Source: Eledone cirrhosa (taxonomy: Eukaryota). Taken from it: a DNA stretch of 64,000 nucleotides. Shown here one piece after another: positions 4,343 to 63,900 of this stretch (within the stretch, counting starts at the first letter, position 1; every line of letters begins with the position of its first letter). A program made the translations under genes and the position numbers. The notes beneath the pieces were generated by a model that had not been told where the DNA came from, made no database searches, and saw nothing but the letters and a program-made list of their open reading frames with translations. The DNA lies in NCBI GenBank assembly GCA_964016885.1, contig OZ024745.1, positions 9,300,001 through 9,364,000 of the forward strand. The letters are read 5' to 3'.

Positions 4343-5185
4343 CTCTAATATGTTTAACTAGATGATAGTTTTATTCTAAACAGTATCACCTGTTGAATGT
4401 TGTCATGACAAAGAATCAACAGTATTAATAATATAATAAATGTGTTTTTTTTGGAATTTGTTTTAGAATATGACAGGATACACATTTAAACTAGAAGTGA
4501 CTGTAGATAAGATGAAGTGTACATTATAACATCTCAAATCTATTATGATTCTTGGCAATGTTAAGTTGAGGAATTGTCTTAGTTATTAGTTTCCTAATAA
4601 AACAGGCTTAGTCTTGTCTTACTTACTAGCATAGAATTAAACATTTTTTTTTCATCTCTGCTATGTAAATGTATTCAGTCAACAACAGACTGTTTTATTG
4701 ATAAGAATTAGGACAATACTGAAAGCTTTCCTCCAAGTCATCCTCAAAGTAACATTATATTTGGTTGGTATTAATGTGATAAATTTGAGGTATATTTATC
4801 TAAATATTTGTCAGATGCTATAAGCATCTATAAGAAATGGTCTGTGGTTGTGAAATTATCTATGACACACACACACCTATTTGTAGTGATACTGTCAGAG
4901 GTATATCTTAGATACAGGAAGTAAAATAATGAATAAAAAAGCTTTCTGTGAACTAAACATGTTAGTTGTAATATTTTCCAAACCAGTGTATTGACTGAAG
5001 GGTGCTAAGTTTATTAATTTACTACATATGAGACTTACTGTTTCTTGTTTGATGCTTCAATGAAACACAAAGCAGTTGTATACTATGAGTATGACATCTG
5101 GTTTTTAATTGCTTGCTTCAAACAATAGAAGTGCAGCTCTTGGATTGCCCAGTAAATGTTATTTTCCTATTTGAAATAATTATTA

Positions 5186-7636: not shown

Positions 7637-10600
7637 CTAGGGCGGGTAAAATTCCCGAGATCCATGGACGAGTTCTCCCCAGCGGTCTCTGTCCCTCATT
7701 ATCGCTGCCATGTCCTGTGTCTCCAACAGACCAGTGTCTGTCCTTAGGGCATCAACATACATTAACCTTGGTCTTCCTCTTCCAGTGTGTCCATGTAGGG
7801 GCTCCCACAGGAGCACTGAGCACTGAGTGCTGTGTCAACTCTGGATATCGGTGAGCATGTCCAGCTACCCTCACTCTCCTCTGTGTCACTTTTGAGCTGA
7901 CTTTTGGGAGGCTCCTATAGAGCTCTGAGTTTTTCATCCTTAGTGTATACTGATTAATGTTCAGAGCCATCCTCAGCATCTCGTGTAGCACCCATCCACC
8001 ACCTGAGTGAGTTTCTTGGTCAGTGTCCAAGTTTCAGATCCGTACTGCTGTACGGATCTGAAACTTGGACAGATTCCACTACAGCAATGAAGAGGCAGAT
8101 TTTCAGGTCTTTACGAAGGTCCGACTTCAACACCGATCTCAAGCTGTGGCACACCGCCCAGGCCTTGCTCTTCCACTCAACCACATCATCTTCCGCATTC
8201 CCAATCTTTGCTCCCAAATACAGGAAGTCCTCAACTAATTCTAGCAGCTTCCCGCCTACATTAGTGATCCCCTCTGGCTTCTCAACATTCTCTACCAGAT
8301 ATTTTGTTTTAGTCTCATTCATTCTCAGCCCCACACTCATCGACACAGTCTCAACCTCCTGCATCAAATCCTCTGCCTCCTTCACTGTATTCGTCACCAA
8401 AACTATGTCGTTGGCAAATTCAGCATCCAATATCTTTTTAGCCTTAAGTCTCCTGCTCTGAGCCGGTGCTACAGAAAAGCCAGAGTCCTGGAGTTTCTCC
8501 AGTGCAAGGCGCATACAATAGTCCACTACGATGGTAAAAAGGTAGGGAGCCAATATATCTCCCTGGAGCACTCCAGCCAGTATCTCAAAGAACTCAAAGT
8601 CATCCCATCAGGTGTAATGACTTGGGTGTTGGTGTAGAGCAATGATATCAGGTCCACTATATTCTTGGGGATTCCATAAACCTGTAAGATCTTCATCAGG
8701 CAGTGACGGTCCACAGAATCAAAGGACTTCTTAAAGTCAATGAAAACCATGATCGCAGGAAGGCACTTTGCTCTAGCTCCCTCTAATATCCTCCTCAGCA
8801 TCAGGATGTGACTGGTGGTTGATCTTCCCTCTCTGAAGCCATTCTGGTTGTCCCTGAGCTTCTTCTCCATCTCAGGCTGGATCCTGTTAAGAATCATTTG
8901 TAAAGAGGGTCTTTGCCACAAATGACATCAGTGAGATCCCCCTGTAGTTGTTGGTGTTAGAGAGATATCCCTTCTTTGGCACTGGCACGATGTTACTGAT
9001 CCTCCACTGATTCGGGGCAACTCTTTTCTCCAGTGCTTGGTTACAGAACTCCAGGATGATATCATCAAAATCACACCTCTTCATCTCCTCTGATGCCACT
9101 CCATCTTCTCCATGAGCCTTGCCCTCCTTGATCTTCTTCTTGGCTCTCTGAAGCTCCTCTCTGGTGAAGGGCTCTGTCTCAATATCCTGTTCTTGAAACA
9201 GCTGCCTGATCTCCCCAGTGCTCTGGGCTGTGGAGGGCGGCTCTCCTAGTAGGGTCCTAAAATGGTCTAGCCATTTCCTCTTCCTTTCCTCGGGCCCTGT
9301 TCCCTGGATCTGACTCAAACACCTTCTCTTCCTCCCTGTGATCGCGTTGATGATCATCCAGCTCTCCTTACATCCAGACCTGTCAATCGCTCTCTCCACA
9401 CTTCTGATCTTCTCTATCAGTGCAGCCTCTCTGGCCTCGGTGTAAGCAGTACAGAGTTCTTCCCTCATCACCTCCACAGTCTCCATCCTCTCCTCCGTAG
9501 GATCAGCATAGAATTGGTCCTTGGCAGCTTACAGGTGTTCGCTGGCTGCACACACTTTTGGGTCTGCAGAGCTGACGTGCTTCCTTTTGTTCTTTCTCCT
9601 CGGCACCATGGTCTCACTTGCTTCCGCCACTGCATTGGTGAAGTGCCGTACCTCCTCGTCACACTCTCCTCAGTCCATCCAATCTCTCTCTCCTCTGTCT
9701 CTCCACACAGAGCACTGAACCTGTTGCTCACTTCTACTGTGAACCTCTCCTGTAACTTATCATCTTCTTTGAAAGCTCCCCAGTCATAGATTGCTCTCCG
9801 GGGATGAACCTTGCTCTTTCTTAAGCTCACCCGGACCTCACTCATAACAAGCCGGTGGTCACTACCCAGTGTACTGAAATAGTTGTATGGTTCTGTGTTC
9901 AGAATACTATTCCGACACTTTTTCTTCAGAATGAAATCAATCTGGGACTTGGACAGGTGCATATCTGAGATGTAGGTCCACATCTTCCCCGGATTCTTCC
10001 TAAACCTTAGGTTGGTTGCTATCAAGTTTGCCTCCAGCAGGGTGTCTCTCAGTAGTCTTCCATTTCGGTTGGTGTTGTTATGGAAGTACCAGCAAGGATC
10101 TTCACTGCCCTCCTTACTCAGATGCATTGAAGTCCCCCAAAACAAGAAGGATGTTGTGTGCTTGTGTGGTGTTGACAGCTCTACACACCTCCTCATGGAA
10201 CTCTTCCGCACTCACATCACTGTCTCCTTCGGTTGGACTATAGGCTGAGATGACTGTCAGTCTCGGGTTTCCATTGAAGGTCACCCTCAACACTCGCGGG
10301 GAGACATGCATTATTTTCCTCACCAATAGACTGGTTTTTGTGCTGAAAACAAAACCCACTCCTCCTACTGCAGCATTGTTCATGTTCCTCACTACTGATG
10401 TGGTGATGAGCTGGCTCATCTTCCCAATCATCACACTCCTCACGGGCTTATCGTGTAGGATCCTGTGTTCTTGGATCGCAAGTATCTGTATACCACTCTC
10501 CTCGAACAGATGTCCCAACTCCTCTCTCTTCTCCAGCGTTCGAATAGTCCTCATATTCAAAGTGCCCATTTTGATGGCTCTTCTGCAGGACAAAACTGCA

Positions 10601-10960
10601 TTCTTTATATTTGTCTCAGAGACAGCTGATCCATCAACCACTGGCCCTCCCTGTGGCTCTAAGCCAGCAGAGTCATAACAACCAGATTGCTCCTTGACAG
10701 TGTAATTAGGGGCTCTAACCCTAGTGCTGTTAGATAGACTCTCCATATTTCTTTTCAATGGGTGACAATACCTTACCGGCGCCACTTGAATAAGTTAGTT
10801 ATTTAACCCATAAATGGCGCCCTAACAGGTACTACTACTCCGGGCCAGAGCAGACCTTGGAGTTATGACAACTAAGGGGTAACTCCACATTCCCCACAGC
10901 ACCTGAACTCCCGAACTGGAGCCTTGCCACTGGATGTAGTTTAATGTCATACCCAGGACA
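7637..10960 (-). mobile_element. Near full-length decayed RTE-clade LINE (APE + RT, multiple frameshifts) with 5' UTR at 10790-10960
   Basis: Consecutive minus ORFs 10114-10785 (GTLNMRT, QEHR, SAYSP, GDFNA), 9468-10211 (SDH), 8887-9486 (NYRGISL), 8526-8921 (DFKKSFD), 8020-8571 (QGD, FAND in place of F/YADD, FLYLG); candidate TSD TTACTTTATAT at 7625-7635 and 10962-10972. Confidence 0.88.
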
Positions 10961-20179: not shown

Positions 20180-20551
20180 CATCATCATCACTTTTGTTTT
20201 TCCATGTTTACATGGGTTGGATGATTCCTTTCCTCTCTCTCTACTTGAAGCAATCCTTCATCTTCTCTGTGAGCTTCTGTGTTTTTAATCAGTTCTAACC
20301 ACCTTTGCCCAAGTTTTTCTTGTTTTTTCTCTACTATTACATCTTTTCACTGGAATCACCTGTCACTTCTTAACCTAGTGTTCATCATCCATATGCCTCA
20401 CATGTATAAACCAGTATGGGTTTCTTTCATGCATCTAATTACTCTTATACCCACCTTTTCTCTCAGGTCAGCCATGCTTTGTTGTTCATGTACATTACAT
20501 ATCAAATGGAGCATGCTTGTTTTATTTCTCTCAGTTTCCATATATCCTCTG
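20180..20551 (-). mobile_element. Old RTE-family 3' fragment, interrupted by a younger copy
   Basis: (CAT)n and stem-loop terminus at ~20180-20225; encodes AEDIWKL-ERNKTSML...LREKVGIR; continues at 21958. Confidence 0.7.
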
Positions 20552-21957
20552 CACAAGCCATGTATAAGGGAGCAGTCAGCAAAGTTAGGATTAGCAATGA
20601 GTATAGCGAGGAATTTAGCGTACAGGTTGGTGTCCACCAGGGCTCTGTTCTTAGCCCTCTCCTGTTCATCATAGTCCTGCAAGCAATAACAGAGGAGTTT
20701 AAGACCGGATGCCCATGGGAACTCCTGTATGCAGATGACCTCGCACTTATAGCCGAATCTATGATAGAACTAGAGAAGAAATTGCAAACTTGGAAGCAGG
20801 GACTAGAAAGAAAGGGTCTCAAAGTCAGCATAACAAAGACTAAGGTCCTTGTAAGTAGACGAGAAAACAGAACCCAGATCCCCTCAGGGAAATGGCCTTG
20901 CTCAGTATGTAGGAAAGGTGTAGGTAGGAACTCCATTCTCTGCCCCAAATGCAAACAATGGGTACACAAGAGATGTAGCGGGATCTCGGGAAGCTTAATT
21001 AAGAATATAGCAGCTGTGCTGGGACAGCAAACAGCCACAGGAAACAAGTACCACCAATCTCTGGGAGGGCTCTGTAGAGACAGTAGACAGCTTCTGCTAC
21101 CTAGGTGACCGAATTAGCAGTGGAGGTAGGTGTTCAGAAAGTACAATAACTAGGGTAAGAACGGGATGGAAGAAGTTCAGGGAACTACTGCCACTGCTAG
21201 CTGCAAAAGGCTTCTCCCTCAAAATGAAGGGCAGACTGTATGATGCAATGTTACATGGTAGTGAGACCTGGGCGCTGAAGGTGGAAGACTTAGGTAGATT
21301 AGAAAGAAACGAAGCCTGCATGCTCCGATGGATGTGTAATAGTAATATACGCGAACGACAAAGCATAAATGAATTGAGAGAGAGACTGAGCATCAGAGGA
21401 ATCAAATGCTGTGTGCAGGAGAGGCGGTTGCGTTGGTATGGATATGTGATGCATATGAAGGATGACAGCTGCATAAAAAGGTGCAGAGCACTAGAAGTCA
21501 TTGGAAGCCGCAGAGTGGGGAGATCCAAGAAGACCTGTGATGAGGTGTTAGGGGCCGACCGTACCCAGTTGCGCCTCTCAAAGGCGATGACACACGACCG
21601 TGACCTCTGGCGTCAAGCAGTAATACAGAGTACCCGACCTCCCATGGGTAGAAGCTGAAGCATATAGACAATATGCCTCCACACCCTCCCACTGTAAAGT
21701 GGTCGTGGAGGTGCCACGGCAAAAAAGCACCCAGCCCACACTGTAAAGTGGACGTGTAGGCGCCACGGAAAAAAGCACCCAGCACTCACTGTAAATGAGG
21801 TTGGTGTTAGGAAGGGCATCCAGCTGTAGAAATCAAGCCAAAATCAGTTCCTGTATGAGCAAGGCATGGCTGGCCGACCAGACACTGCCCACAACAGGAC
21901 AACCTGTCTAACCCATGCTAGCATGGAAGAACGGATGTAAAACGATGATGATGATGA
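20552..21957 (+). mobile_element. PHD-RT RTE subfamily B, 5'-truncated, frameshifted, (GAT)n tail
   Basis: ORFs 20416-21108 (GVHQGS, YADD, PHD part) and 21224-21658; ~300-bp 3' UTR. Confidence 0.92.
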
Positions 21958-22400: not shown

Positions 22401-23764
22401 CTGCCTATGTAAGGTATTCTAGCTTTGTGTAGTTGGCAACTTTAAATATATAATATTTCTAGCATTAGAAAGGTATGAAGTTGAAGAAACTATACTGAAA
22501 TTTGAACGTATGTGAGATGTGACCCCAGCCAGACATGGCCAGTAGCTCCAATTAAGTACTAGTTTACACTGTAATCACCTGTTCAACCCAAGCTCACTTT
22601 GAAAAAATGAATGTAAAATGATGATTTCTACTTGATTTGATTTTCTTTCCAATACAGAAAGTAACTTGTTAGTAGATTTAATTAGTATATTTTTAAAATC
22701 TTAACAATCATACAATTTTTAAAATTTTAACAATCATACAATTGTCGGGTATTTTCATTTTTAATTAGTGCTTTACTTGAAGAAAGCCTCAGAAGTGAGC
22801 CAAATATTATCTTTTCTTTGTTGAGCATATATGTATTATCATCATTAGTTTGTTTTTTCATGCTTGCATGGGTTGGATGAGTCTTCTCCAGCATGTAATC
22901 ATAATGTACATTACATATTCAGCAGAGTGTGCTTGCCTCATTTCTTTTCTGCCTTTGCCCACCTTATGCTGCCATGCAATATTGTACTTTGTCCACAAAC
23001 CTCTGCCTTTCACCCATAGATAGAATCACTTTGTTGTCATCCTGTTCAGCATGGAAAAACAGACATAACACACTGATGATAGTACAAATGAAAGACTAGA
23101 TATGTTACACATTTTGTTATTTCTATGACTCAGAACACAAAGTTCAAAACTATGAGGTAAATTTTTGAAATAATGTCATAATTAAAATTGTAATCTGTCC
23201 TTGAAAATGGGAGGTGAGAATTTAATAGAATAATAACAGCTGGTACATGGAACCTCAACATTTAACAGTTTAACTTATTTCAAAACAAAGTGTTTGCATG
23301 ATGAGATTTTTTGTTTTTCCATTCAATCTATTTCAAATCTCTCTCAATATATTCAGTAAAAATGATGGTCCAACAAATTTCAATAGGGTTGTTAAGTTGT
23401 TAATTCAGTCTCTGTCCCCACCACCACCAAAAAGACAAAAAAAAAAAAAAAAAAAAAAAAAAAAGCAATTACAATGAATTAAATAGTGTTTTGATCAATT
23501 TTAACAATCAAAATCAATGTTATCATTAACTTTGTTGTGCTACTCCAACTGAAAAATAGATATATGAGATGTTTACACAAGTCTTTCTCTTGTATTGTGT
23601 GAATAGACCTACTCTAAGCATGTGCTGTAGGCTGGTTAACTTGAGGAGGAGAGGGATGCACTCAAAGTGTCAGGCATTTCAGGATTGGTGGAGTACCTGG
23701 GTGGTTCACTCCCCCTATCTATTGGGGAATTTATTTTGTTATATTTTATATATATATATATTTT

Positions 23765-24983
23765 AGGAAAGAAAATAAGGCGCCGGTCCCTTCCGGGAAA
23801 TGGCCATGCTCAGTGTGTAGGAAAGGCGTAGGTAGAAACTCCATTTTATGTCCCAAATGCAAAGTATGGGTGCATAAAAGATGTAGTGGGATCACAGGTA
23901 AGCTAACTAAGAACATAGATTTTACATGTGGCCGGTGCTCTGGTGCAATAAGTAGCAGCAAGTGCCCACAAAATACTAGCTCTTTCAATTGCGCAGAGGG
24001 TTCTATAGAAATAGTGGACAGCTTCCGTTACCTGGGTGACAAAATCAGCAGCGGAGGAGGGTGCTCTGAAAGTACAGTAGCTAGAGTCAGAACTGGATGG
24101 AAAAAGTTCAGAGAGCTTATACCACTATTAGCCGCTAAAGGGTTCTCCCTAAAAATGAAAGGCTGGCTGTATGATGCCTGCATACGAACAGCAATGTTGC
24201 ATGGCAGTGAGACCTGGGCATTGTGTGCAGAGGATATACGCAGACTAGAGAGGAACGAAGCTTGCATGCTCCGCTGGATGTGTAATAGTAATATACGTGA
24301 ACGGCAAAGCATAAACGAACTAAGGGAAAAATTAGAAGTAAGAGGGATCAGATATTGTTTACTCGAGAGAAGGCTACGTTGGTATGGTCACGTGATGCGC
24401 ATGAAAGACGACAGCTGTATAAAAAAGTGCAGGGCAATAAAGATAGACGGTAGCCACGGAGTAGGCAGACCCAGAAAAACCTGGGACGACCTGATAAATT
24501 CCGACCTCACACACTTACACCTCTCCAAGACAATGTCACTGGACCGAGATCTTTGGCGGTACTCAGTAATAGAGAAGACCCGCCTTACCTAAATACAAAG
24601 TAAAACCTACTACAGTTAGTAGGCATCTCTAACAAAATACACCCCCGTCCCACCACCCCCACCTTATCCACACCGCCCCTTTCAATGTAAAGTTATGTTG
24701 GTGCCACAACATCCAGGCCGAAACAAATGAGATCGTGTAAGTGTCACGACAAAAAAAACACACAGTCCACGCTGTAATGTGGCCGTGTAGGTAACACGGT
24801 AAAAATCTCCCAGTCCACACTGTAAATGTGGTTGGTGTTAGGAAGGGCATCCAGCTGTAGAAAACCCGCCAGACAGTCCTATGCGAGCAAGACAACCACT
24901 CTTGCCTCAAGTGGGAAAACTCCTGTCCAAACCCATGCAAGCATGGAACATGGACATTAAACGATGATGATGATGATGATGAT
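23765..24983 (+). mobile_element. PHD-RT RTE subfamily C, 5'-truncated at a (TA)n tract, (GAT)n tail
   Basis: ORF 23813-24592 nearly identical to the C-terminus of the 55425-58400 ORF; same 3' UTR. Confidence 0.93.
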
Positions 24984-25038
24984 TTTATTTTTATATTTTT
25001 TTGTTGTTAAATAGGTTTTGTTGTGTATTTTCACTCAC

Positions 25039-37236: not shown

Positions 37237-37446
37237 AATGCTGGCATACAGCTTTCCTCATTCAATAAAGAGTATGTCTTTTTTTATGTCTTTCAGAACC
37301 AGCTCAATTTGACTTTCTGTCAATTGAGCTGGCTTACTTGTTGCGTTGGATATAGTCCTGAAGGTTATGGTATTCCTATATACCTGTTGACGAACTTCTT
37401 CTGGGGAGTTGATCGTAAAAGAACCATCCTTATTTTTGTATATATT

Positions 37447-40400: not shown

Positions 40401-41063
40401 AATGTGATGTGTTGACACTAATATCCTGACTGAGAATGTGATGTGTTGACACTAATATCCCAACGGAGAATGTGATGTGTTGACACTAATATCCCAACGT
40501 AGAATGTGATGTGTTAACACTAATATCCTGATGGAGTATGTGATGTGTTGACCCTAATATCCCGATGGTGAATGTGATGTGTTGACACTAATATGCAGAC
40601 GGAGAATGTGTTGACACTAATATCCTGATGGTGTATGTGTTGACACTAATACCCTGATGGTGATTGTGTTGACACTAATATCCCCTATAGTGAATGTGTT
40701 GACACTAATATACCGACAGAGAATCTGTTGACACTAATATCCCCTATAGTGAATGTGTTGACACTAATACCCCGATGGTGAATGTGTTGACACTAACATC
40801 CCGATGGTAAATGTGTTGGCACTAATATCCCGATGGTGAATGTGTTGACACTAACATCCCGATGGTAAATGTGTTGGCACTAATATCCCGATGGTAAATG
40901 TGTTGACACTAATACTGCTGATTGTGAATGTGTTGACACTAATATCCCGACGGTGAATGTGTTGACACTAATATCCCGACGGTGAATGTGTTGACACTAA
41001 TACCCCCCCCCCCCCCCCCCCGATGGAGAATGTGTTGACACTAATATCTCCGATGGTGAATGT
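37447..41063. repeat. Satellite, 29-bp unit GAATGTGTTGACACTAATATCCCGAYGGW with 34-bp variant (+GATGT)
   Basis: Continuous tandem array with blocks alternating between 29/30-bp and 34-bp units. Confidence 0.97.
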
Positions 41064-43130
41064 CATCATCATTATCTCCGTTTTACGTCCGTTCTTCCAT
41101 ACTAGCATGGGTTAGACGGGTTGTCCTGTTGTGGGCAGTGTCTGGTCGTCTGACCATGCCTTGCTCATACAGGAACTGATTTTGGCTTGATTTCTACAGT
41201 CTGGATGCCCTTCCCAACACCAACCTCATTTACAGTAAGTGCTGGGTGCTTTTTCCGTGGCGCCTACACGTCCACTTTACAGTGTGGGCTGGGTGCTTTT
41301 TTGCCGTGGCACCTCCACGACCACCTTGCAGTGGGAGTGTGTGGGGGCATATTGTCTATATGCTTTAGCTTGTACTCATGGGAGGTCGAGTACTCTGTAT
41401 TACTGCGTGACGCCAGAGGTCACGGTCCTGTGTCATCAACTTTGAGAGGTGTAATTGGGTAAGGTCGGCTTTTATCACCTCATCCCAGGTCTTCTTGGGT
41501 CTCCCCGCTCCGCGGTTTCCCTTGACTTCTAGTGCTCTGCACCTTTTTATGCAGCTCTCATCCTTCATACACATCACATGTCCATACCAACGCAACCCGC
41601 CTCTCCTGCACACAGCATTTGATTCCTCTTATGCTCAGTCTTGCTCTCAATTCATTTATGCTTTGTCGTTCGCGTATATTACTATTACACATCCATCGGA
41701 GCATGCAGGCATCGTTTCTTGCTAATCTACGTAAGTCTTCCACCTTCAGCGCCCAGGTCTTACTACCATGTAACATTGCTGTTCGGATACACACATCATA
41801 CAGTCTGCCTTTCATTTTGAGGGAGAAGCCTTTTGCAGCTAGCAGTGGCAGTAGTTCCCTAAACTTCTTCCATCCCGTTCTTAGCCTAGTTATTGTACTT
41901 TCTGAACACCCACCTCTGCTACTAATTCGGTCACCTAGGTAACAGAAGCTGTCTACTGTTTCTACAGAGCCCTCCCAGAGATTGGTGGTATGTTTCCTGT
42001 GGCTGTTTGCTACTTGTTGTCCCAGCACAGCTGCTGTATGTGAAGCCTACATGCTTAATTAAGCTTCCTGAGATCCCGCTACATCTCTTGTTCACCCATT
42101 GTTTGCATGTGGGGCAGAGGATAGAGTTCCTACTTACATCTTTCCTACATACTGAGCAAGGCCATTTCCCTGAGGGGATCTGGGTTCTGTTTTCTCGTCT
42201 ACTTACAAGGACCTTAGTCTTTGTCATGTTGACTTTGAGACCCTTCCTTTCTAGTCCCTGCTTCCAAGTTTGCAATTTCTTTTCCAGTTCTACCATAGAT
42301 TCAGCTATAAGTTCCCATGGGCATCCAGTCTTAAACTCCTCCGTTATTGCCTGCAAGTCTATGATGAACAGGAGAGGGCTAAGAACAGAGCCCTGGTGGA
42401 CACCAACCTGTACGCTAAATTCCTCGCTATACTCATTGCTAATCCTAACTTTGCTCACTGCTCCTCTATACATGGCTTGTACAGCTTTCACAAGCCATTC
42501 ATCTACTCTTAGTTTTCTAAGAACCCACCAGATTACACCATGTGGAACTCTGTCAAAGGCTTTCTCGAGATCGACGAATGCCAGGTAGAGTGGCTTACTT
42601 TTAGCTAGGTACTTTTCCTGTAACTGCCTGACAAGGAAGAGGGCATCAGTGGTGCCTCTTCCTGGTACAAACCCAAATTGCATCTCATCTAGTTTCACCC
42701 GGTCCCTAATCAACTGTGCTATAACTCTTTCTGTTACTTTCATGACCTGGTCCATCAGCTTTATACCTCTATAGTTTCCTCTATCTAGTGCATCACCTTT
42801 ACCTTTGTAGCAGTTGACAATGATGCTACTGCACCAATCTTTTGGTATGACACCTTCTAGTATTACCTGGTTAACAATACGTGTGGTTATAGTGTGACCT
42901 ACAGACCCAGATGCCTTCAGCATCTCGGCAGCTATACCCGATAGACCGGTTGCCTTCCCCATCTTCATATCTTTGATTGCCTTACTTACTACACTGCTGC
43001 TGACTTGTACTGCTGGCCCCTCTATAGGGTCTACTTAGGGTAGGGTCTCTTCTTCCCATGCATTCTTCTCATTTAGTAATCTATCATAATGGCTCTTCCA
43101 TGCATCTTTCTTCTCAGCACTTGTGAGGCA
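41064..43130 (-). mobile_element. PHD-RT RTE subfamily B, 5'-truncated, inserted in the satellite
   Basis: ORFs 41931-42968, 41558-42028, 41365-41613; YADD deleted (CPWELIAES); 16-bp TSD CTCCGATGGTGAATGT at 41048-41063 and 43131-43146. Confidence 0.93.
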
Positions 43131-49799: not shown

Positions 49800-50857
49800 T
49801 CATCATCATCTTCGTTTAACGTCCATTTTCCACACTAGCATGGGTTAGACGGGAGTTGTCCCACTTGAGGCAAGGCTGGTCGGGTGACTGTCTCGCTCAT
49901 ATAGGACTATCTGGCAGGTTTTCTACGGCTGGATGCCCTTCCTAACACCAACCACATTTACAGTGTGGAACTGGGAACTTTTTACTGTGTTATCTACACA
50001 GCCACATTACAGCATGGACTGTGTGTGTTTTTTTGTCGTGACACCTACACGAACTCGATCTCATTTTCTCGTGCTGTTGGTGGGAGTGGGAGGATAGGGT
50101 AGGGGTAGTAGATTGGGGTGTATATTTGGTTAAGAGGTGCCTACTGACTGTAGGTTTCGCTTTGTACATAGGCAAGGCGGATCTTCTGTATTACTGCGTA
50201 GCGTCAAAGATCTCGGTCCAGAGACATTGTCTTAGAGAGATGTGTGTGAGGTCAGAATTTATCAGATCATCCCAGGTTTTTCTGGGTCTACCTACTCCGT
50301 AACTACCATCAATTTTGATCGCCCTGCGCTTTTTTATGCAGCTGTCGTCTTTCATGCGCATCACGTGACCATACCAAAGTAGTCTTCTCTCAAGTAAACA
50401 ACATCGGATCCCTATTATTCCTAATTTCTTACTTCGTTCATTTATGCTTTGCCGTTCACGTATATTACTATTACACATCCAACGGAGTATGCATGCTTTG
50501 TTCCTTTCCAGTCTATGCAGGTCCTCTGCACGTAATGCCCATGTCCCACTGCCATGTAGCATCGCTGTTCGTATACAGGCATCATACAATCTGCCTTTCA
50601 TTTTTAGAGAGAAACCTTTAGTGGACAACAGCGGTATAAGCTCTCTGAACTTTTTCCATCCCTTTCTGACTCTGGCTACTGTACTTTCAGAACACCCTCC
50701 ACCACTGCTGATTTCGTCACCCAGGTAACGGAAAGTGTCTACTATTTCTATAGAACCATCTGGGCAATGGAAGGAGCTAGTATCCTTTGGACACTTGCTA
50801 CTTATTGCACCTGAGCATTGGCCACATATAAAGTCTACGTTCTTAGATAGTTTACCT
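49800..50857 (-). mobile_element. PHD-RT RTE (C-related, older), 5'-truncated, nested in microsatellite
   Basis: ORF 50191-50628 (GRLYDACIRTAMLHG...WYGHV); (CAT)n at 49800. Confidence 0.9.
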
Positions 50858-50888
50858 GTATATATGTATGTGTATATATGTATGTATA

Positions 50889-51163: not shown

Positions 51164-51420
51164 GTGTATATATGTATATATATGTATATATATATATTTA
51201 TATATGTGTATATATGTATATATATGTATGTATATATATATATATTTATATATGTGTATATATGTATATATATGTATGTATATATATATATATTTATATA
51301 TGTGTATATATGTATATATATATATATATTTATATATGTGTATATATGTATATATATGTATGTATATATATATATATTTATATATGTATGTATATATATA
51401 TATTTATATATGTGTATATA
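50858..51420. repeat. Compound TA/TATG microsatellite
   Basis: Direct reading. Confidence 0.97.
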
Positions 51421-51893
51421 TCATCATCATCATCATCATCAACGTTTAATGTCCGTGTTCCACGCTTGCATGGGTTTGGACGGGGGTTTTCCCACTTGAG
51501 GCAAGAGTGGTTGTCTTGCTCGCATAGGACTGTCTGGCGGGTTTTCTACAGTTGGATGCCCTTCCTAACACCAACCACATTTACAGTGTGGGTCTGGGAG
51601 GTTTTTACCGTGTTGCCTACACGGCCACATTACAGCGTGGACTGTGTGTTTTTTTGTCGTGACACCTACACGATCTCATTTGTTTCGGCCTCGATGGCGC
51701 GGCACCAACATAACTTTACATAGAACGGGGTGCTGTGGATGGGGTGGGGGTGGTGGTGGTGGGACGGGGGTGTATTTTGTTAGAGATGCCTACTGGCTGG
51801 AGTAGGTTTTACTATATATTTAGGTAAGGCGGGTCTTCTCTGTTACTGAGTACCGCCAAAGGTCTCGGTCCAGTGACTTTGTCTTGGAGAGGT
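51421..51893 (-). mobile_element. 3' end of PHD-RT RTE subfamily C
   Basis: Near-identical reverse complement of 58327-58812. Confidence 0.92.
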
Positions 51894-55065: not shown

Positions 55066-58000
55066 ACAGAGCCCCCACGCATCACCAGTATTATTACGCG
55101 GACCAATCAGAAACCAGAGGCCTATACTATCGCTTGCCTGGTTGCCTTTCGATATATGATGGATGGATGGACTGCGGAATCCTGGAGAGTGGAGGTGAGA
55201 GAGAGAAAAATCTGGACGCTCAGCGACAATGCCAAAGATAAAGACAAATTCACCTCTTGGACGAGAATGCGAGCACTCCTCATTGTTTCGACCGCGGACG
55301 GCTAACATAACCCCCATCGCCCCCCGCCCCCCACCGCCCCCAACCCCCAAACGCAATCCAAAACTTCAGAGTTGGTACCATAAATGTAGGCACCCTAAAG
55401 GGTCGCGCTAACGAGGTTGTAGAAATGCTTGAACGTAAGGAGGTCGATGTTTGTTGTATTCAAGAGACCAGGTGGAGGGGTGGGTCTGCTAGGTTCATTG
55501 AAGGTAAAAAACGATGTTATAAGCTTTTCTGGGTGGGAAACGACGATGGGCTGGGTGGAGTAGGAATCATGGTAGCAGAAAAGTGGGCAGATAAGATAAT
55601 AGACGTAAATAGAGTGAACGACAGAATAATTAAAATACGACTTGTCCTCAATAGAACTACGGTGACAGTAATATCTGCGTACGCACCCCAATCCGGACTG
55701 CCCGGCACTATAAAAGACAGATTCTATGAGACACTGATGCTAACTACCTCCCAAATATCCGACAGTGACTATATAATTATCGCAGGCGACCTAAATGGTC
55801 ACGTTGGACAACATTGTGACGGCTACGACGAAATCCATGGAGGCTATGGGTTTGGTACTAGAAATGAGGAAGGCTCCAGAATCCTGGAATTCTGTGATGC
55901 AAATAACCTAACTATCTGTAACACTAACTTCAAAAAACGTGACAATCACCTGATCACCTATAGATCCGGGGAACACACAAGCCAGGTAGATTATATCCTT
56001 ACCAGAAGACGTGACAGAGTGTCTGTTGTAAACACTAAATCCCTCCCCCATGAAGAATGCACCTCCCAACATAGACTGATAATTAGCGACCTCATAGTCA
56101 GGACGAGACGTACTCGACAACAGAAGAGGACTATCCTCAGGAGGAAAATATGGAAGCTAAAGGACCCCACAGCCAGGAATAAATTTCAAAGCATATTACT
56201 TGATGCTTTCGACAGTAAGGAAGAACATTTAGAGTCGGACAATATAGAGGGAGAGTGGGAATTTCTGAAAGCAAACCTGCTGTTGGCGACAGACGAAGTC
56301 TGTGGCTGGAGCAGGCCTGTAGGCAGGAGGAGAGTAACATGGTGGTGGAACAGTAAGGTGGAGGGGTCAATTAAGGCCAAAAAGCAGGCTTGGAAAGTAT
56401 GGCGGGATGGGGGAAGTAGAGAGGACTATCAAGTGGCCAGGAAGGAAGCTAGGAGACAAGTGTACTTAGCAAGAAGGGAAGCTGAGGAAAGAAAGTTCAA
56501 GCATGTTCTACAACGCGATGACCAAAAACGTGAGGTGTTCAGGATTGCTAGGCAATGCGTCAAGGAAAACCGTGATATTGTCGGGGAGAAGTGTGTACTA
56601 AACGACGATGGCACACTTGCCATCACCGACGCTGATAAGAAGGTAGCTTGGAGGTGTCACTATGAAAGGCTACTAAATGAGGAGAATAATTGGGAGAAAG
56701 GCAGTCTCCCCCATATCGACCCAATAGAGGGACCAGCAGTGTTAGTCGAGGGGAGTATAATAAGTAAGGCAATCAAGGATATGAAGACGGGTAAGGCGGC
56801 TGGGCCTTCGGAAATAGTTGCTGAGATGCTGAAGGCATCTGGCACGGTGGGACACACCATGGTCACCCGCATAGTTAACCAAGTCGTACAGAATGGGGTT
56901 GTTCCGAAGGACTGGCATAGCAGCATCATCGTTAACTGTTATAAGGGTAAAGGAGACGCCCTAGATAGGAGTAACTATAGAGGCATTAAATTAATCGACC
57001 AGGTCATGAAGGTCACGGAAAAAGTAATAGCGCAACTAATCAGAGAGAGAATTGACCTAGATGAAATGCAGTTCGGGTTTGTGTCAGGCAAAAGTACCAC
57101 AGACGCTCTTTTCATAGTACGACAACTACAGGAGAAGTACCTAGCTAAAGGTAAACCCCTCTACTTAGCTTTTGTCGACTTGGAGAAAGCCTTCGACAGA
57201 GTCCCCCGCTCCATTATCTGGTGGGCTCTTAGAAAACTAGGCGTTGACGAATGGCTTGTGAGGGCTATACAAGCCATGTATAAAGAAACAGTCAGCAAGG
57301 TTAGAATTAACAACGAATATAGTGAAGAGTTTAGCGTAAAAGTTGGCGTCCATCAGGGCTCTGTTCTCAGCCCACTACTATTTATTATTGCCCTTCAGGC
57401 TATAACAGAGGAGTTCAAGACAGGCTGCCCATGGGAACTCCTATACGCAGACGACCTGACACTCATAGCGGAATCAATGGCCGAGCTAGAGAAGAAATTC
57501 CAAACATGGAAGCACGGCCTAGAGTCAAAAGGACTTAAAATTAACCTGGCTAAGACCAAAGTACTAGTTTGTAGGAAAGAAAACAAGGCGGCGGTCCCTT
57601 CTGGGAAATGGTCGTGCTCGGTGTGTAGGAAAGGCGTAGGTAGAAACTCCATTTTATGTCCTAAATGCAAAGTATGGGTGCATAAAAGATGTAGTGGGAT
57701 CACAGGTAAGCTAACTAAGAACATAGATTTTACATGTGGCCGGTGCTCTGGTGCAATAAGTAGCAGCAAGTGCCCACAAACTACTAGCTCTTTCAATTGC
57801 GCAGAGGGTTCTATAGAAATAGTGGACAGCTTCCGTTACCTGGGCGATAAAATCAGCAGTGGGGGAGGGTGCTCTGAAAGTACTGTAGCTAGAGTCAGAA
57901 CTGGTTGGAAAAAGTTCAGAGAGCTTATACCACTATTAGCTGCTAAAGGGTTCTCACTAAAAATGAAAGGCAGGTTGTACGATGCCTGCATACGAACAGC

Positions 58001-58812
58001 AATGCTGCATGGCAGTGAGACCTGGGCATTGTGTGCAGAGGATATACGCAGACTAGAGAGGAACGAAGCTTGCATGCTCCGCTGGATGTGTAACAGTAAT
58101 ATACGTGAACGGCAAAGCATAAACGAACTAAGGAAAAAATTAGAGATAAGAGGGATCAGATGTTGTTTACTCGAGAGAAGGCTACGTTGGTATGGACACG
58201 TGATGCGCATGAAAGTCGATAGCTGTATAACAAAGTGCAGGGCAATAAAGATAGACGGTAGTCACGGAATAGGCAGACCTAGAAAAACCTGGGACGAGCT
58301 GATAAACTCCGACATCACACACTTACACCTCTCCAAGACAATGTCACTGGACCGAGACCTTTGGCGGTACTCAGTAACAGAGAAGACCCGCCTTACCTAA
58401 ATATATAGTAAAACCTACTCCAGCCAGTAGGCATCTCTAACAAAATTCACCCCGTCCCACCACCCCCACCCCCACCCCATCCACACCACCCCATCCACAC
58501 CACCCCGTTCTATGTAAAGTTATGTTGGTGCCGCGCCATCGAGGCCGAAACAAATGAGATCGTGTAGGTGTCACGACAAAAAAACACACAGTCCACGCTT
58601 TAATGTGGCCGTGTAGGCAACACGGTAAAAACCTCCCAGACCCACACTGTAAATGTGGTTGGTGTTAGGAAGGGCATCCAACTGTAGAAAACCTGCCAGA
58701 CAGTCCTATGCGAGCAAGACAATCACTCTTGCCTCAAGTGGGACTACCCCCGTCCAAACCCATGCAAGCGTGGAACACGGACGTTAAACGTTGATGATGA
58801 TGATGATGATGA
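55066..58812 (+). mobile_element. Apparently full-length PHD-RT RTE LINE (subfamily C)
   Basis: 5' leader, APE-RT ORF without stops, ~390-bp 3' UTR, (GAT)n tail, microsatellite on both sides. Confidence 0.95.
55425..58400 (+). CDS. LINE polyprotein: AP endonuclease + reverse transcriptase with inserted PHD finger (991 aa from first ATG; frame open from 55311)
   Basis: APE QETRW, SAYAP, GDLN, QVDYIL, SQH; RT YADD at 57444-57455; PHD at 57615-57746; GTINVGTL motif in frame upstream of the ATG. Confidence 0.93.
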   Translation: MLERKEVDVCCIQETRWRGGSARFIEGKKRCYKLFWVGNDDGLGGVGIMVAEKWADKIIDVNRVNDRIIKIRLVLNRTTVTVISAYAPQSGLPGTIKDRFYETLMLTTSQISDSDYIIIAGDLNGHVGQHCDGYDEIHGGYGFGTRNEEGSRILEFCDANNLTICNTNFKKRDNHLITYRSGEHTSQVDYILTRRRDRVSVVNTKSLPHEECTSQHRLIISDLIVRTRRTRQQKRTILRRKIWKLKDPTARNKFQSILLDAFDSKEEHLESDNIEGEWEFLKANLLLATDEVCGWSRPVGRRRVTWWWNSKVEGSIKAKKQAWKVWRDGGSREDYQVARKEARRQVYLARREAEERKFKHVLQRDDQKREVFRIARQCVKENRDIVGEKCVLNDDGTLAITDADKKVAWRCHYERLLNEENNWEKGSLPHIDPIEGPAVLVEGSIISKAIKDMKTGKAAGPSEIVAEMLKASGTVGHTMVTRIVNQVVQNGVVPKDWHSSIIVNCYKGKGDALDRSNYRGIKLIDQVMKVTEKVIAQLIRERIDLDEMQFGFVSGKSTTDALFIVRQLQEKYLAKGKPLYLAFVDLEKAFDRVPRSIIWWALRKLGVDEWLVRAIQAMYKETVSKVRINNEYSEEFSVKVGVHQGSVLSPLLFIIALQAITEEFKTGCPWELLYADDLTLIAESMAELEKKFQTWKHGLESKGLKINLAKTKVLVCRKENKAAVPSGKWSCSVCRKGVGRNSILCPKCKVWVHKRCSGITGKLTKNIDFTCGRCSGAISSSKCPQTTSSFNCAEGSIEIVDSFRYLGDKISSGGGCSESTVARVRTGWKKFRELIPLLAAKGFSLKMKGRLYDACIRTAMLHGSETWALCAEDIRRLERNEACMLRWMCNSNIRERQSINELRKKLEIRGIRCCLLERRLRWYGHVMRMKVDSCITKCRAIKIDGSHGIGRPRKTWDELINSDITHLHLSKTMSLDRDLWRYSVTEKTRLT

Positions 58813-58824
58813 TATGTATGTATG

Positions 58825-58857
<33 letters not shown>

Positions 58858-58884
58858 GTATATATATGTATGTATGTATGTATA

Positions 58885-58920
<36 letters not shown>

Positions 58921-59122
58921 TGTATATATATATATATATATGTGTATGTATGTATGTATGCATGTATGTATGTATATATATATATATATATGTGTATGTA
59001 TGTATGTATGTATGTATGTATGTATGTATATATATATATATATATATGTGTATGTATGTATGTATGTATGTATGTATGTATATATATATATATATATGTG
59101 TATGTATGTATGTATGTATGTA
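58813..59122. repeat. (TATG)n/(TA)n microsatellite
   Basis: Direct reading. Confidence 0.97.
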
Positions 59123-61508
59123 TCATCATCATCATCATCATCATCAGGTTTAGCGTCCGTGTTCCACGCTTGCATGGGTTTGGACGGGGGTTTTCCCACT
59201 TGAGGCAAGAGTGGTTGTCTTGCTCGCATAGGACTGTCTGGCGGGTTTTCTACAGTTGGATGCCCTTCCTAACACCAACCACATTTACAGTGTGGGGCTG
59301 GGAGGTTTTTACCGTGTTGCCTACACGGCCACATTACAGCGTGGACTGTCTGGCGGGTTTTCTACAGCTGGATGCCCTTCCTAACACCAACCACATTTAC
59401 AGTGTGGGGCTGGGAGGTTTTTACCGTGTTGCCTACACGGCCACATTTACAGCGTGGACTGTGTGTTTTTTGTCGTGACACCTACACGATCTCATTTGTT
59501 TCGGCCTGGATGTTGTGGGACCAACATAACTTTACATTGAAAGGGGCGGTGTGGAGGTGGTGGGACGGGGGTGTGTTTTGATAGAGGTGCCTACTGACGG
59601 TAGTAGGTTTTTACTTTGTATTTAGGTAAGGCGGGTCTTCTCTATTACTGAGTACCGCCAAAGGTCTCGGTCCAGTGACATTGTCTTGGAGAGGTGTAAG
59701 CGTGTGAGGTCGGAATTTATCAGCTCGTCCCATGTTTTTCTGGGTCTGCCTACTCCGTGGCTACCGTCTATCTTTATTGCCCTGCACTTTGTTATACAGC
59801 TGTCGTCTTTCATGCGCATCACGTGACCGTACCAACGTAGCCTTCTCTCGAGTAAACAACATCTGATCCCTCTTATTTCTAATTTTTTCCTTAGTTCGTT
59901 TATGCTTTGCCGTTCACGTATATTACTATTGCACATCCAGCGGAGCATGCAAGCTTCGTTCCTCTCTAGTCTGCGTATATCCTCTGCACACAATGCCCAG
60001 GTCTCACTGCCATGCAGCATTGCTGTTCGTATGCAGGCATCGTATAACCTGCCTTTCATTTTTAGGGAGAACCCTCTAGCGGCTAATAGTGGTATAAGCT
60101 CTCTGAACTTTTTCCATCCAGTTCTGACTCTAGCTACTGTACTTTCAGAGCACCCTCCCCCACTGCTGATTTTGTCACCCAGATAACGGAAGCTGTCCAC
60201 TATTTCTATAGAACCCTCTGCGCAGTTGAAGGAGCTAGTATTTTGTGGGCACTTGCTGCTACTTATTGCACCAGAGCACCGGCCACATGTAAAATCTATG
60301 TTCTTAGTTAGCTTACCTGTGATCCCACTACATCTTTTATGCACCCATACTTTGCATTTGGGACATGAAATGGAGTTTCTACCTACGCCTTTCCTACACA
60401 CTGAGCATGGCCATTTCCCCGATGGGACCGCCGCCTTATTTTCTTTCCTACAAACTAGAACTTTAGTCTTAGCCAGGTTAATTTTAAGGCCTTTTGATTC
60501 TAGGCCGTGCTTCCACGTTTGGAATTTCTTCTCTGGTTCGGTCATTGATTCAGCTATGAGCGTTAGATCATCTGCGTATAGGAGTTCCCATGGGCAGCCG
60601 GTCTTGAACTCCTCTGTTATAGCCTGAAGGGCAATAATAAATAGTAGGGGGCTAAGTACAGAGCCCTGATGGACACCAACTTTTACGCTAAACTCTTCAC
60701 TATATTCGTTGTTAATTCTAACCTTACTGACTGTTTCTTTATACATGGCTTGTATAGCTCTCACAAGCCATTCGTCAACACCTAGTTTTCTAAGAGACCA
60801 CCAGATAATGGAACGGGGGACTCTGTCGAAGGCTTTCTCCAAGTCGACAAAAGCTAAGTATAGGGGTTTACTTTTAGCTAGGTACTTCTCCTGTAGTTGT
60901 CGTACAATGAAAAGAGCGTCTGTGGTACTTTTGCCTGACACAAACCCGAACTGCATTTCATCTAGATCAATTCTCTCTCTGATTAGTTGCGCTATTACTT
61001 TTTCCGTGACCTTCATGACCTGGTCGATTAATTTAATGCCTCTATAGTTACTCCTATCTAGGGCATCTCCTTTTCCCTTATAGCAGTTAACGATGATGCT
61101 GCTACGCCATTCCTTCGGAACAACCCCATTCTGTACGACTTGGTTAACTATCCGGGTGACCATGGTGTGTCCCACCGAACCAGATGCCTTCAGCATCTCA
61201 GCAACTATTTCCGAAGGCCCAGCCGCCTTACCCGTCTTCATATCTTTGATTGCCTTACTTATTATACTACCTTCAACTAACACTGCTGGTCCCTCTATTG
61301 GATCGATCTGGGGGAGACTGTCTTTCTCCCATTTGTTCTCCTCAAGTATGCCATCATCGTTAAGTACACACTTCTCCCCGACAATATCACGGTTTTCCTT
61401 GACACATTGCCTGGCAATCCTGAACACCTCACGTTTTTGGTCCTCACGTTGTAGAACATGCTTGAACTTTCTTTCCTCTGCTTCCCTTCTTGCGAAGTAC
61501 ACTTGTCT
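59123..61508 (-). mobile_element. PHD-RT RTE subfamily C, 5'-truncated; ORF 59622-61502 with 60-nt in-frame deletion; ~112-bp duplication in 3' UTR
   Basis: Protein nearly identical to residues ~345-991 of the 55425 ORF; duplication 59231-59342 / 59343-59455. Confidence 0.95.
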
Positions 61509-62004: not shown

Positions 62005-63900
62005 CAAAGTTCTTTCGTTGCACATCTGCAAAGACCACAAGACAGTCGATGACCCGACAACAGGACCACCAACAAGACCCGTATGCGGAGAAAATATAGC
62101 TAGCAACTACAGGATCTCCTACTTCCTCTCAATGCTCATACGCCCCATAATCAAGATGTCCCTAGATGTATGTGACAGTTCAGAGGACCTCCTCAGCAGA
62201 ATCAGTGAGTGCAACAAAAACAGGAACCTATCCAACTGCATAATAGGCAGCATGGATGTGGTGTCACTGTACCCATCCATTAACATTGATTTTGCTGTGT
62301 AAAAATGTGTGGAGATGATCATTGAGAGTGAAGTGGAGTTCTGCGACATCGACACGGACGAACTGGGCCTCCTACTTAGACTTACCTACGACACTGACTA
62401 CCTAGACAGCCATGACCTTAGACGTTTCTGCCCCAGTAGACCCATAAGAGGTAGACCCTCCCCACCATAACCTCTGACAAAAAGACTCCCATGGGAAGGT
62501 GGATTGGGTGGACCAAAGCTATACAGACCCCCCAAAACAATGATCAGGTAAGAAAAATGGTCGCACATGCAATAGGGGCTAGTATCAAAACTACCCTAAA
62601 GTGCCACATATTCAAGTTCAAGATCTACACCCAAAATGAGGGAGCAGCCATTGGCGTCAGCATAACTGATAACGTTGCCAACCTTTTTATGGTATGGTGG
62701 GAAAGGAGACTCAAAGATCTCCTTGATGAGAGCTCCATAGACCTCATCGTGTACTCTCGTTACGTAGACGACATCAATATAGTAATAAGGACATCCCCAC
62801 AAGAGAGCACTAACAAGTTTGATTTAGAACGTAGCACATTGGAAAGCATCCAGCAAAGAGCTAATTCCATACACCAGAGTATAACTGTAACTATCGACTA
62901 CCCTTCCAAACACCCTAACAATAGACTACCTATATTAGACACGGAACTCTGGATTAACACTATAGACGAGAGAGCCCAAATTCTCCACTCACACTATGCT
63001 AAACCCATGGTCTCCAAATACCTGATACTCAAAAACTCAGCAATGTCCAGTAGTGCTAAGTTTAATATTCTGATCGCAGACTTGGTACGAGTGATGAAGA
63101 ACGTGTCCCGCATGTGCGACCCAACAGAAATGGAAAGACACATCCAAAGACACATCCAGTTCTCTGGCTACAACCAAAGAGACAGAATCAGAGTATACAA
63201 AGGAGCCATGGAGAAGTATAAGACCCTCATAGAACTGGACATGAAAGGAATTTGCCTATTATACAGGAGCAAATCATGGAATAGCTTAGACAGGACTAGA
63301 CATAAGATAGGGAAAGCCACCTCATGGTACGACAACCAGAGATACCACAGTGTCATGTTTGTGGACGCTACCCCTGGAGGGAAATTAGCTAACCAGTGTA
63401 GAAAGGCCCTGAGAAAGACCCACTTAAAGATTAAGGTGGTAGAAAGGCAGGAACCACCATAAAATCCCTGATCAGCAAAACCTACCCTTTTAAGAAAACC
63501 CACTGTACTAATAGGAAATGTATCATATGTAGAGTAAAGCCCCGGATAAACTGTAAAACTAGAAATGTAGTCTATAGCATAAGATGTACAGCGGGTACTT
63601 GCAGAAACATGACAACAACATACATAGGCGAGACAGCTTGTAGCATAGGTGAAAGGATAGACCAACACTGGAGGGAACTAAAAGGACGAAAAAACGCTTA
63701 AGTACTATACGAACATGCCAGACAACAACACAACGGTAACATAGACAACATAGAAGTTAGAATAATATCTAAACATAGAAATGACCCAGCAGATAGGCAA
63801 ATCAGAGAGGCCAGCGAAATAGAACTTAGAAGGCCAAGGATGAATGGAATAACAACAACACACAAACAAACAACACTGACCTAAGAGAAGTATAAATAAA
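62005..63900 (+). mobile_element. Penelope-like retroelement (RT + GIY-YIG endonuclease), decayed
   Basis: HKT...TRPVCG, SMDVVSLYPSI, QNEGAAIG, RYVDDI, LPILD, HYAKPM; then CTNRKCIIC...CKTRNVVYSIRC...YIGET...ERIDQH (about 63500-63670); stops and frameshifts present. Confidence 0.88.

What the first reader, a model, noticed from the sequence alone, without database searches (positions are those of the whole stretch)
57615..57746. Canonical PHD zinc finger inserted inside the reverse transcriptase of an RTE LINE family
Seen: between the post-YADD motif (GLKINLAKTKVL) and the next RT motif (IVDSFRYLG) lies a 44-aa C-x2-C-x10-C-x2-C-x4-H-x2-C-x14-C-x2-C module. It recurs in divergent subfamily A (6696-6827) with all 8 ligands and the same spacing, although the residues between them differ, which argues for selection. 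The other RTE in the window (8020-8571) has only a short linker at this position. Known: PHD fingers read H3K4 methylation state, and in non-LTR elements they are best known from ORF1 of CR1/L2-like elements. Inference: the Trp two residues before the His (WVH) and the aromatic before Cys1 (W-x-C) match aromatic-cage positions, so the RT may be tethered to chromatin or nucleic acid during target-primed reverse transcription. I cannot exclude that this lineage is already in Repbase or Dfam.
Basis: partly seen in the sequence, partly recalled or inferred. Interest (0 to 1): 0.75.

Follow-up and report, generated by a model that had tools for sequence, protein, structure and literature searches.

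The report
Chromatin-reader finger inside LINE polymerase
A very abundant jumping gene carries a conserved PHD zinc finger inside its reverse transcriptase, and its copies sit mostly in CpG-poor DNA such as housekeeping-gene bodies, so the finger likely reads a gene-body chromatin mark and would steer new insertions there.

Summary
Observation confirmed. 57615-57746 encodes a true C4HC3 PHD finger (Pfam above cut-off; model matches Pygo/TAF3/BPTF PHDs) between RT motifs 6 and 7 of a young, very abundant RTE-type LINE, where R2's DNA-reading 6a loop lies. It is under strong purifying selection, complete and single in 203 of 240 relatives found by RT core alone (cnidarian, bivalve, fish), and tandemly doubled in 3 more. 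Four of Pygo's five methyl-lysine pocket positions are kept; the acidic residues that anchor the H3 N-terminus are absent and the finger is basic. Young copies lie in CpG-depleted DNA (flank o/e 0.27 vs 0.59 in controls); 14 of 20 DEAD-box gene windows but 0 of 20 GPCR windows hold the family. That argues against promoter H3K4me3 reading and for a gene-body mark plus DNA (inferred; binding untested). Against: a CR1/L2-type family with no PHD found shares the bias. No paper found in five searches; Repbase/Dfam not checked. The scan reported this same element before on other DNA (18 findings).

The parts
55066..58813 (+). RTE-type LINE, subfamily B, nearly full length (5' UTR truncated), between TA-rich microsatellites
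   Evidence: about 99% identical to 28 of 30 other copies, 97% to two
55229..58400 (+). single ORF (1056 aa in an intact copy); this copy has a one-base frameshift near 55311
55377..56084 (+). APE-type endonuclease domain
   Evidence: Pfam PF03372 aa 23-240, PF14529 aa 119-258
56967..57569 (+). reverse transcriptase core through motif 6 (YADD at 57444)
   Evidence: Pfam PF00078 aa 553-753
57567..57818 (+). 84-aa insertion between RT motifs 6 and 7, at the position of the R2 6a loop
   Evidence: R2Bm 655-669 aligns to aa 741-755, 6a loop is 672-677
57609..57746 (+). PHD finger (W767, C769-C812) with Pygo-type pocket W767, V776, S780, W789; 10 K/R, 1 D
57819..58400 (+). RT motif 7, thumb and C-terminal region
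   Evidence: model aligns to R2 and L1 ORF2p over residues 27-629
58401..58813 (+). 3' UTR ending in seven GAT repeats (58793-58813)
   Evidence: same tail in 30 of 30 loci
5175..7520 (+). subfamily A copy, 65% aa identity, intact PHD at 6696-6827
20542..21957 (+). subfamily C copy, PHD broken in its second half
23761..24996 (+). 5'-truncated B-like copy, intact PHD at 23807-23938
41063..43127 (-). subfamily C copy, frameshifted, PHD decayed
49800..50859 (-). 5'-truncated copy that begins inside the PHD
51415..51893 (-). short 3' fragment of the family
59121..61508 (-). B-like copy tail to tail with the main copy, intact PHD at 60276-60407
8020..10794 (-). unrelated RTE family D without PHD (used as a control)

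Best explanation
This RTE-type LINE carries a conserved PHD finger inside its reverse transcriptase, at the loop where R2 contacts upstream target DNA, and the finger likely binds a methylated lysine on nucleosomes of transcribed gene bodies (H3K36me3 is my first guess) while its basic face likely holds neighbouring DNA, which would tether the enzyme and steer insertion into methylated housekeeping-gene bodies. Shown: fold class, position, selection, pocket residues, charge, and the skew of copies towards CpG-poor DNA and DEAD-box gene windows. Inferred: that CpG-poor means germline-methylated gene body, that the skew arises at insertion, that the PHD causes it, and which mark is read. Local site choice is separate: the GAT tail meets AT-rich, often TA-repeat DNA.
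For: Position: R2Bm 655-669 aligns to aa 741-755; the 6a loop at 672-677 reads upstream DNA and its deletion blocks nicking (PMC10499050, passages; PMC11601368, passages). The RT fold is intact around the insert (pLDDT 89.4, pTM 0.87; Z 24.8, rmsd 3.5, 484 aligned to R2Tg). Pocket: Pygo's cage is W366, Y341, D352, V350, A356 (PMC2726290, passages); the Pygo2 alignment puts W789, W767, a gap, V776 and S780 there. Among complete fingers: Trp 98 of 100 and 103 of 103; Val 85 of 100 and 101 of 103; Y/F/W before Cys1 81 of 100 and 98 of 103; no acid among the commonest residues at Cys3+1; median net charge +5. Some relatives carry Pfam PHD_Pygo. Selection: B vs C pN 0.058 in the pocket half, 0.076 in the RT core, 0.35 in the linker, pS about 0.7; tandem doubling in 3 of 120 relatives. 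Landing sites: CpG o/e of non-repeat flanks 0.27 (28 of 40 B flanks usable) vs 0.59 (35 of 40 evenly spaced controls, p 0.005), 0.74 for PHD-less RTE D (13 of 20, p 0.003), 0.65 for an L1-like family (18 of 20, p 0.003). In control windows the family fills 13.6% of CpG-poor and 0.5% of CpG-rich windows (13 of 15 vs 3 of 19), other interspersed repeats 24% vs 28%, and TA runs are not commoner in CpG-poor windows. DEAD-box windows o/e 0.35, 14 of 20 with the family; GPCR windows 0.87, 0 of 20 (10 of 20 vs 0 of 20 at equal 5-kb size). Depletion already holds in the first 500 bases beside young copies (0.30 vs 0.63), and CpG sites inside copies decay about 3 times faster. Gene-body methylation of constitutive genes in invertebrates and its overlap with H3K36me3/H3K79me: PMC9476566 and PMC13345969 (passages). 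PHDs that prefer H3K36me3 exist (Ecm5, Nto1; PMC3241642, passages).
Against: A CR1/L2-type family (F) in which I found no PHD (two copies examined, ORF1 possibly incomplete) shows the same bias: 15 of 65 CpG-poor vs 0 of 68 CpG-rich windows. At 100-250 kb, D and F cluster with A+B copies 2.0-2.6-fold, similar to the PHD-bearing C at 1.8-2.0-fold. Young copies are less exclusive (21 of 28 CpG-poor vs 15 of 34 controls) than the family as a whole, so retention may add to the skew. Before strict repeat masking the B-vs-control difference was only p 0.03-0.05. 12 of 40 B flanks had too little non-repeat DNA to score. B hits came from contigs C1 and C2 only and were ties among the best 150. No host exon was found in the window, whose o/e is 0.22. 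RTEs of schistosomes and C. elegans are also often reported in introns (PMC1291365, passages). Most PHD cages read the H3 N-terminus; H3K36me3 readers among PHDs are few. No methylation or ChIP data for this genome were seen.
Confidence: 0.45

Rival explanations
1. The finger is a DNA clamp like R2's 6a loop: it grips upstream target DNA (possibly methylated or TA-rich DNA) during priming and binds no histone; the gene-body skew has another cause, such as open germline chromatin or better tolerance of copies silenced by gene-body methylation.
For: Position at 6a; net +9, K at His+1 in 92 of 100, K/R at His+2 in 87 of 100; family F shares the skew without a PHD found; gene-body methylation silences intragenic transposons (PMC13345969).
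Against: The most conserved surface is the peptide pocket (Trp, Val, Ser, aromatic), which a backbone clamp would not need; PHD-less D and the L1-like family do not sit in CpG-poor flanks.
Confidence: 0.27
2. The finger is a canonical H3K4me2/3 reader that draws the element to active promoters.
For: Cage Trp and aromatic conserved; nearest folds are Pygo, TAF3, BPTF.
Against: No counterpart of D352 or E360, and E360 is needed for binding in Pygo; basic surface; first 500 bases beside young copies have CpG o/e 0.30, below controls. H3K4me1/2 inside genes is not excluded.
Confidence: 0.12
3. The pocket binds a non-histone partner (a host elongation or chromatin factor) or the element's own RNA, or it stiffens the RT, and any targeting is indirect.
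For: PHDs bind non-histone proteins (PMC3241642; TET3, ASXL2 and VRK1 complexes listed); basic surface; the insert is well ordered in the model.
Against: No partner identified; RTs without the insert are widespread, including near relatives, so it is not needed for the fold.
Confidence: 0.14
4. The insert is a neutral passenger.
For: PHD-less relatives exist (4 of 120).
Against: pN/pS 0.08 in the pocket half; complete and single in 203 of 240 relatives down to about 45% RT identity.
Confidence: 0.02

Closest known systems
RTE-clade LINEs (RTE-1, SR2/SR3, octopus RTE-2_OV)
   Same: One long ORF of about 1,050 aa with APE endonuclease and RT, 3' end in short AT-rich repeats, AT-rich targets (PMC1291365, passages).
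   Different: A PHD inside the RT; RTE-2_OV is described with a C2H2 finger instead (bioRxiv 10.1101/2021.01.24.427974 passages; PMC9115989 passages). The 3' UTR is about 390 bases, longer than SR3's 177.
R2 retrotransposon RT insertion 6a
   Same: Insertion between RT motifs 6 and 7, at the aligned position, with basic residues.
   Different: 6a is a 6-residue base-reading loop in a site-specific RLE element, and the paper calls it unique to R2; here it is an 84-aa two-zinc domain in an APE element with no fixed target.
Pygopus PHD finger (H3K4me2 reader)
   Same: Best PHD match by profile and fold; four of five pocket positions kept.
   Different: No D352 or E360 counterpart, shorter loops, basic instead of acidic face, no HD1 partner known.
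PHD fingers in ORF1 of CR1/L2 LINEs
   Same: A PHD in a non-LTR element (PMC4120745, abstract and passages).
   Different: Those lie in ORF1 or 5' of the endonuclease; this one is inside the catalytic domain of a single-ORF element.
Chromovirus integrase chromodomains and HIV integrase with LEDGF (recalled, no call)
   Same: A chromatin reader steers retroelement integration; LEDGF reads H3K36me3 plus DNA in gene bodies.
   Different: Those are LTR elements with integrase; here a LINE with target-primed reverse transcription, and steering is only inferred.

Membership tests
PHD finger | C4HC3 ligand pattern with Pfam PF00628 above cut-off | tested here: met
   28.2 bits vs 24
PHD finger | PHD fold | tested here: met
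   64-aa model pLDDT 74.9; best match Pygo Z 6.0, rmsd 3.2, 53 aligned, nearly all 50 rows PHD proteins; Foldseek TAF3/Pygo/BPTF probability about 1.0, E 0.01
PHD finger | binds two zinc ions | not testable with these tools
   needs purified protein
H3K4me2/3-reading PHD (Pygo, TAF3, BPTF type) | cage Trp two before His and aromatic/hydrophobic pocket | tested here: met
H3K4me2/3-reading PHD (Pygo, TAF3, BPTF type) | acidic residues that anchor H3 A1/R2 and K4me2 (Pygo E360, D352) | tested here: not met
   P784 and a gap at these places; S, G, T, N, V commonest at Cys3+1; requirement
H3K4me2/3-reading PHD (Pygo, TAF3, BPTF type) | measured binding to methylated H3K4 | not testable with these tools
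   no assay; methylated lysine cannot be modelled here
RTE clade | single long ORF with APE endonuclease and RT | tested here: met
   1056-aa ORF with PF03372, PF14529, PF00078
RTE clade | 3' end of short AT-rich tandem repeats after a short UTR | tested here: met
   5-9 GAT repeats in 30 of 30 loci; UTR about 390 bases
RTE clade | RT phylogeny groups with named RTE references | tested here: inconclusive
   no named RTE reference was on hand; trees hold only unnamed relatives and two families of this genome
R2 6a-type target-DNA contact | insertion between RT motifs 6 and 7 | tested here: met
R2 6a-type target-DNA contact | contacts upstream target DNA in three dimensions | not testable with these tools
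   model coordinates are not returned; only overall fold match
curated RTE consensus with annotated PHD (Repbase/Dfam) | insertion already annotated | not testable with these tools
   these libraries are not held; automatic Pfam annotation of public proteins does show RVT_1 plus PHD

The most novel reading that the evidence does not exclude
An ancient animal LINE lineage built its own LEDGF-like reader into the reverse transcriptase: a Pygo-type PHD retooled to read H3K36me3 (or another gene-body mark) plus DNA, which aims tens of thousands of insertions at methylated housekeeping-gene bodies and so inflates their introns.
Probability: 0.25. Interest if true: 0.85.

Novelty: new variant of a known kind. 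Interest (0 to 1): 0.62.

Why it matters
LINEs with an APE endonuclease are thought to choose sites mainly through the endonuclease and a short sequence preference. A chromatin reader built into the RT, at the loop that R2 uses to read DNA, would give a direct handle on how a LINE chooses its chromatin and could explain why housekeeping genes of some invertebrates are filled with retrotransposons. It is testable with one small domain and point changes, and it marks the 6a position as a site that tolerates a whole targeting domain, which bears on retrotransposon-based gene insertion tools.

Tried and rejected
Complex prediction of the PHD (71 aa, two zinc) with the unmodified H3 tail of this genome: no answer, score 0.00, alignment not used; counted neither way. 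Search for RNA runs: no RNA holder listed. Gain versus loss of the PHD: the tree nests PHD-less fish-type elements among PHD-bearing ones, but holding the PHD rows together is not rejected (p-AU 0.119, one long outgroup, 15 rows), so the insertion is not dated; the careful tree did not finish and the quick tree was used. dN/dS within subfamilies was set aside because copies had been picked for likeness to the PHD query; dS between subfamilies is near or at saturation, so pN and pS are quoted. TA-repeat availability as the cause of the skew: rejected, TA runs are commoner in CpG-rich windows. Local transposon-driven methylation as sole cause (PMC8857917, passages): weakened, since DEAD windows with little or no copy are also CpG-poor (0.20-0.38) and other repeats are as dense in CpG-rich windows. 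Strand bias in DEAD windows: none by segments (17 sense, 19 antisense; 6.8 vs 15.0 kb). C1/RING identity: below cut-offs. Target-site duplications could not be fixed because ends lie in microsatellites. Host exons in the window: none recognised among open frames of 55 aa or more in 20 non-repeat stretches. Prior art: five searches gave no paper on a PHD inside an RTE RT; the PHD mentions in PMC3849965, PMC9115989, PMC9004415 and PMC3747384 were grants, theses or reference lines. Subscription journals, Repbase Reports, Dfam and all supplements (for example those of PMC9115989) were not seen and could hold an annotation.

Full report
Observation. The 132 bases at 57615-57746 encode the 44-aa C4HC3 module as described, inside an 84-aa stretch between RT motifs 6 and 7 of an open frame with APE endonuclease and RT. 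Pfam PHD passes its cut-off in this copy and in the divergent copy at 6696-6827, and the RTE at 8020-8607 has no PHD.

The element. The window lies in a 3.0-Gb genome; the insert region drew 60,376 candidates, and all 150 scored were 100% identical over 106 aa. Thirty loci are 97-99% identical to the window copy and end in 5-9 GAT repeats; 22 of 30 continue with AT or AC, and 16 of 30 run into purine-pyrimidine repeats. All 12 visible 5' junctions follow TA-rich runs. Three subfamilies (A, B, C) carry the finger and form one branch. The anatomy fits the RTE clade as described in PMC1291365 (passages); no named RTE reference was on hand for a tree.

Spread and selection. Two searches by RT core alone, which do not use the finger, listed 120 proteins each. 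A complete single PHD sits at the same place in 100 and 103 of them; 3 have two in tandem; 4 have a short linker; the other 30 are spacing variants, truncated, frameshifted or not parsed. Named hosts are Hydractinia, Mercenaria and a catfish; the named PHD-less ones are from Hemibagrus. A search with the insert region gave 150 further representatives with the same residues conserved. Between subfamilies B and C, pN is 0.058 in the first half of the finger, 0.076 in the RT core and 0.35 in the downstream linker, with pS about 0.7. Whether the finger was gained once and lost in PHD-less fish-type elements is undecided.

Structure. The 629-aa RT model is confident (pLDDT 89.4, pTM 0.87) and matches R2 and L1 ORF2p over its length, so the insert does not break the fold. 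The finger alone matches Pygo, TAF3 and BPTF PHDs. R2Bm 655-669 aligns to aa 741-755, and R2's 6a loop, which reads upstream target DNA and is needed for nicking, is 672-677 (PMC10499050, passages; PMC11601368, passages). The insert therefore starts at the 6a position. That it faces upstream DNA is inferred.

Pocket. Pygo's K4me2 cage is W366, Y341 and D352 with V350 and A356 at the base, and E360 is needed for binding (PMC2726290, passages). The Pygo2 alignment places W789, W767, V776 and S780 at four of these, with a gap at D352 and Pro at E360. These four are the best-kept non-ligand positions across relatives, acids are absent from the commonest residues after Cys3, and the median net charge is +5; this copy is +9. 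Typical H3-tail readers hold R2 in an acidic groove (PMC10124903, passages). So a methyl-lysine-type pocket is kept while the anchors for the H3 N-terminus are not.

Where copies lie. Earlier notes of this scan suggested CpG-poor regions; I tested this afresh. I took 10 kb beside 40 of the 150 young B copies, 40 evenly spaced control windows, and 20 flanks each of a PHD-less RTE (D) and an L1-like family (E). After masking repeats, median CpG o/e was 0.27 (28 usable), 0.59 (35), 0.74 (13) and 0.65 (18); with lighter masking B vs control was p 0.03-0.05. In controls the family fills 13.6% of CpG-poor and 0.5% of CpG-rich windows, while other repeats are even and TA runs lean the other way. Twenty DEAD-box gene windows (from 52 matches) are all CpG-poor and 14 hold the family; twenty GPCR windows (from 150 matches; 5 kb) are all CpG-rich and none does. 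Depletion holds in the first 500 bases beside young copies, and CpG sites in copies decay three times faster than other C and G. In invertebrates with mosaic methylation such DNA is the body of constitutive genes, marked by H3K36me3 and H3K79me (PMC9476566, PMC13345969, passages). I did not determine the host species; earlier notes call it an octopus.

Results against. A CR1/L2-type family F, with no PHD found in two copies, shows the same bias (15 of 65 vs 0 of 68 windows). At 100-250 kb, A clusters with B about 3-fold, but D and F cluster with A+B 2.0-2.6-fold too, and only E does not. Young copies are less exclusive than the whole family, which leaves room for retention. Transposons may themselves draw methylation in cnidarians (PMC8857917, passages), and other RTEs are often reported in introns. 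No host exon was recognised in the window.

Mechanism. I commit to a chromatin tether: the pocket likely binds a gene-body methyl-lysine, first guess H3K36me3 (a few yeast PHDs prefer it, PMC3241642, passages), the basic face likely binds adjacent DNA, and the endonuclease and GAT tail would then pick an AT-rich site nearby (0.45). A pure DNA clamp (0.27), an H3K4me2/3 reader (0.12) and a non-histone or RNA partner (0.14) are the rivals; neutrality is refuted.

Novelty. PHDs in LINEs are known from ORF1 of CR1/L2 (PMC4120745, abstract and passages). Five literature searches found no account of a PHD inside an RTE RT, but public proteins already carry the automatic RVT_1 plus PHD annotation, and Repbase, Dfam, subscription journals and supplements were not seen. 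The scan has reported this element before: 18 findings in at least 3 genomes. Verdict: real, a new variant of a known kind, interest 0.62.

Noticed in passing
P0371, P0372, P0379: A sublineage has two PHD fingers in tandem inside the RT at the same site.
   Followed up: partly
window 55066-61508: The main copy and the 59121-61508 copy lie tail to tail, 93% identical, about 300 bases of microsatellite apart, forming a long inverted repeat; the second has a duplication inside its 3' UTR.
   Followed up: no
window 1216-2583 (-); L209, L210: CR1/L2-type family F (label from motifs, recalled) occurs in 15 of 65 CpG-poor and 0 of 68 CpG-rich windows, with no PHD found; how it reaches gene bodies is unexplained.
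   Followed up: partly
window 32980-37257 (-): L1/Tx1-like family E (label recalled): many genomic copies have 1163-aa open frames and stand in head-to-tail arrays about 5.6 kb apart, which suggests insertion into itself or a fixed target; it leans to CpG-rich DNA.
   Followed up: partly
L010-L030, 5' junctions: All 12 visible 5' truncation points follow TA-rich runs, even where the 3' flank has only a short one; the element may add or extend TA repeats on insertion.
   Followed up: no
window 25464-26533 (-): Broken fragment that looks like the C-terminal endonuclease region of an R2/R4-type element (motifs recalled).
   Followed up: no
window 62455-63462 (-): Penelope-like RT fragment (label recalled).
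   Followed up: no
P0002, P0178: Database labels look wrong: a catfish element protein is named slc22a21, and one relative is filed under a bacterial MAG, likely host contamination.
   Followed up: no
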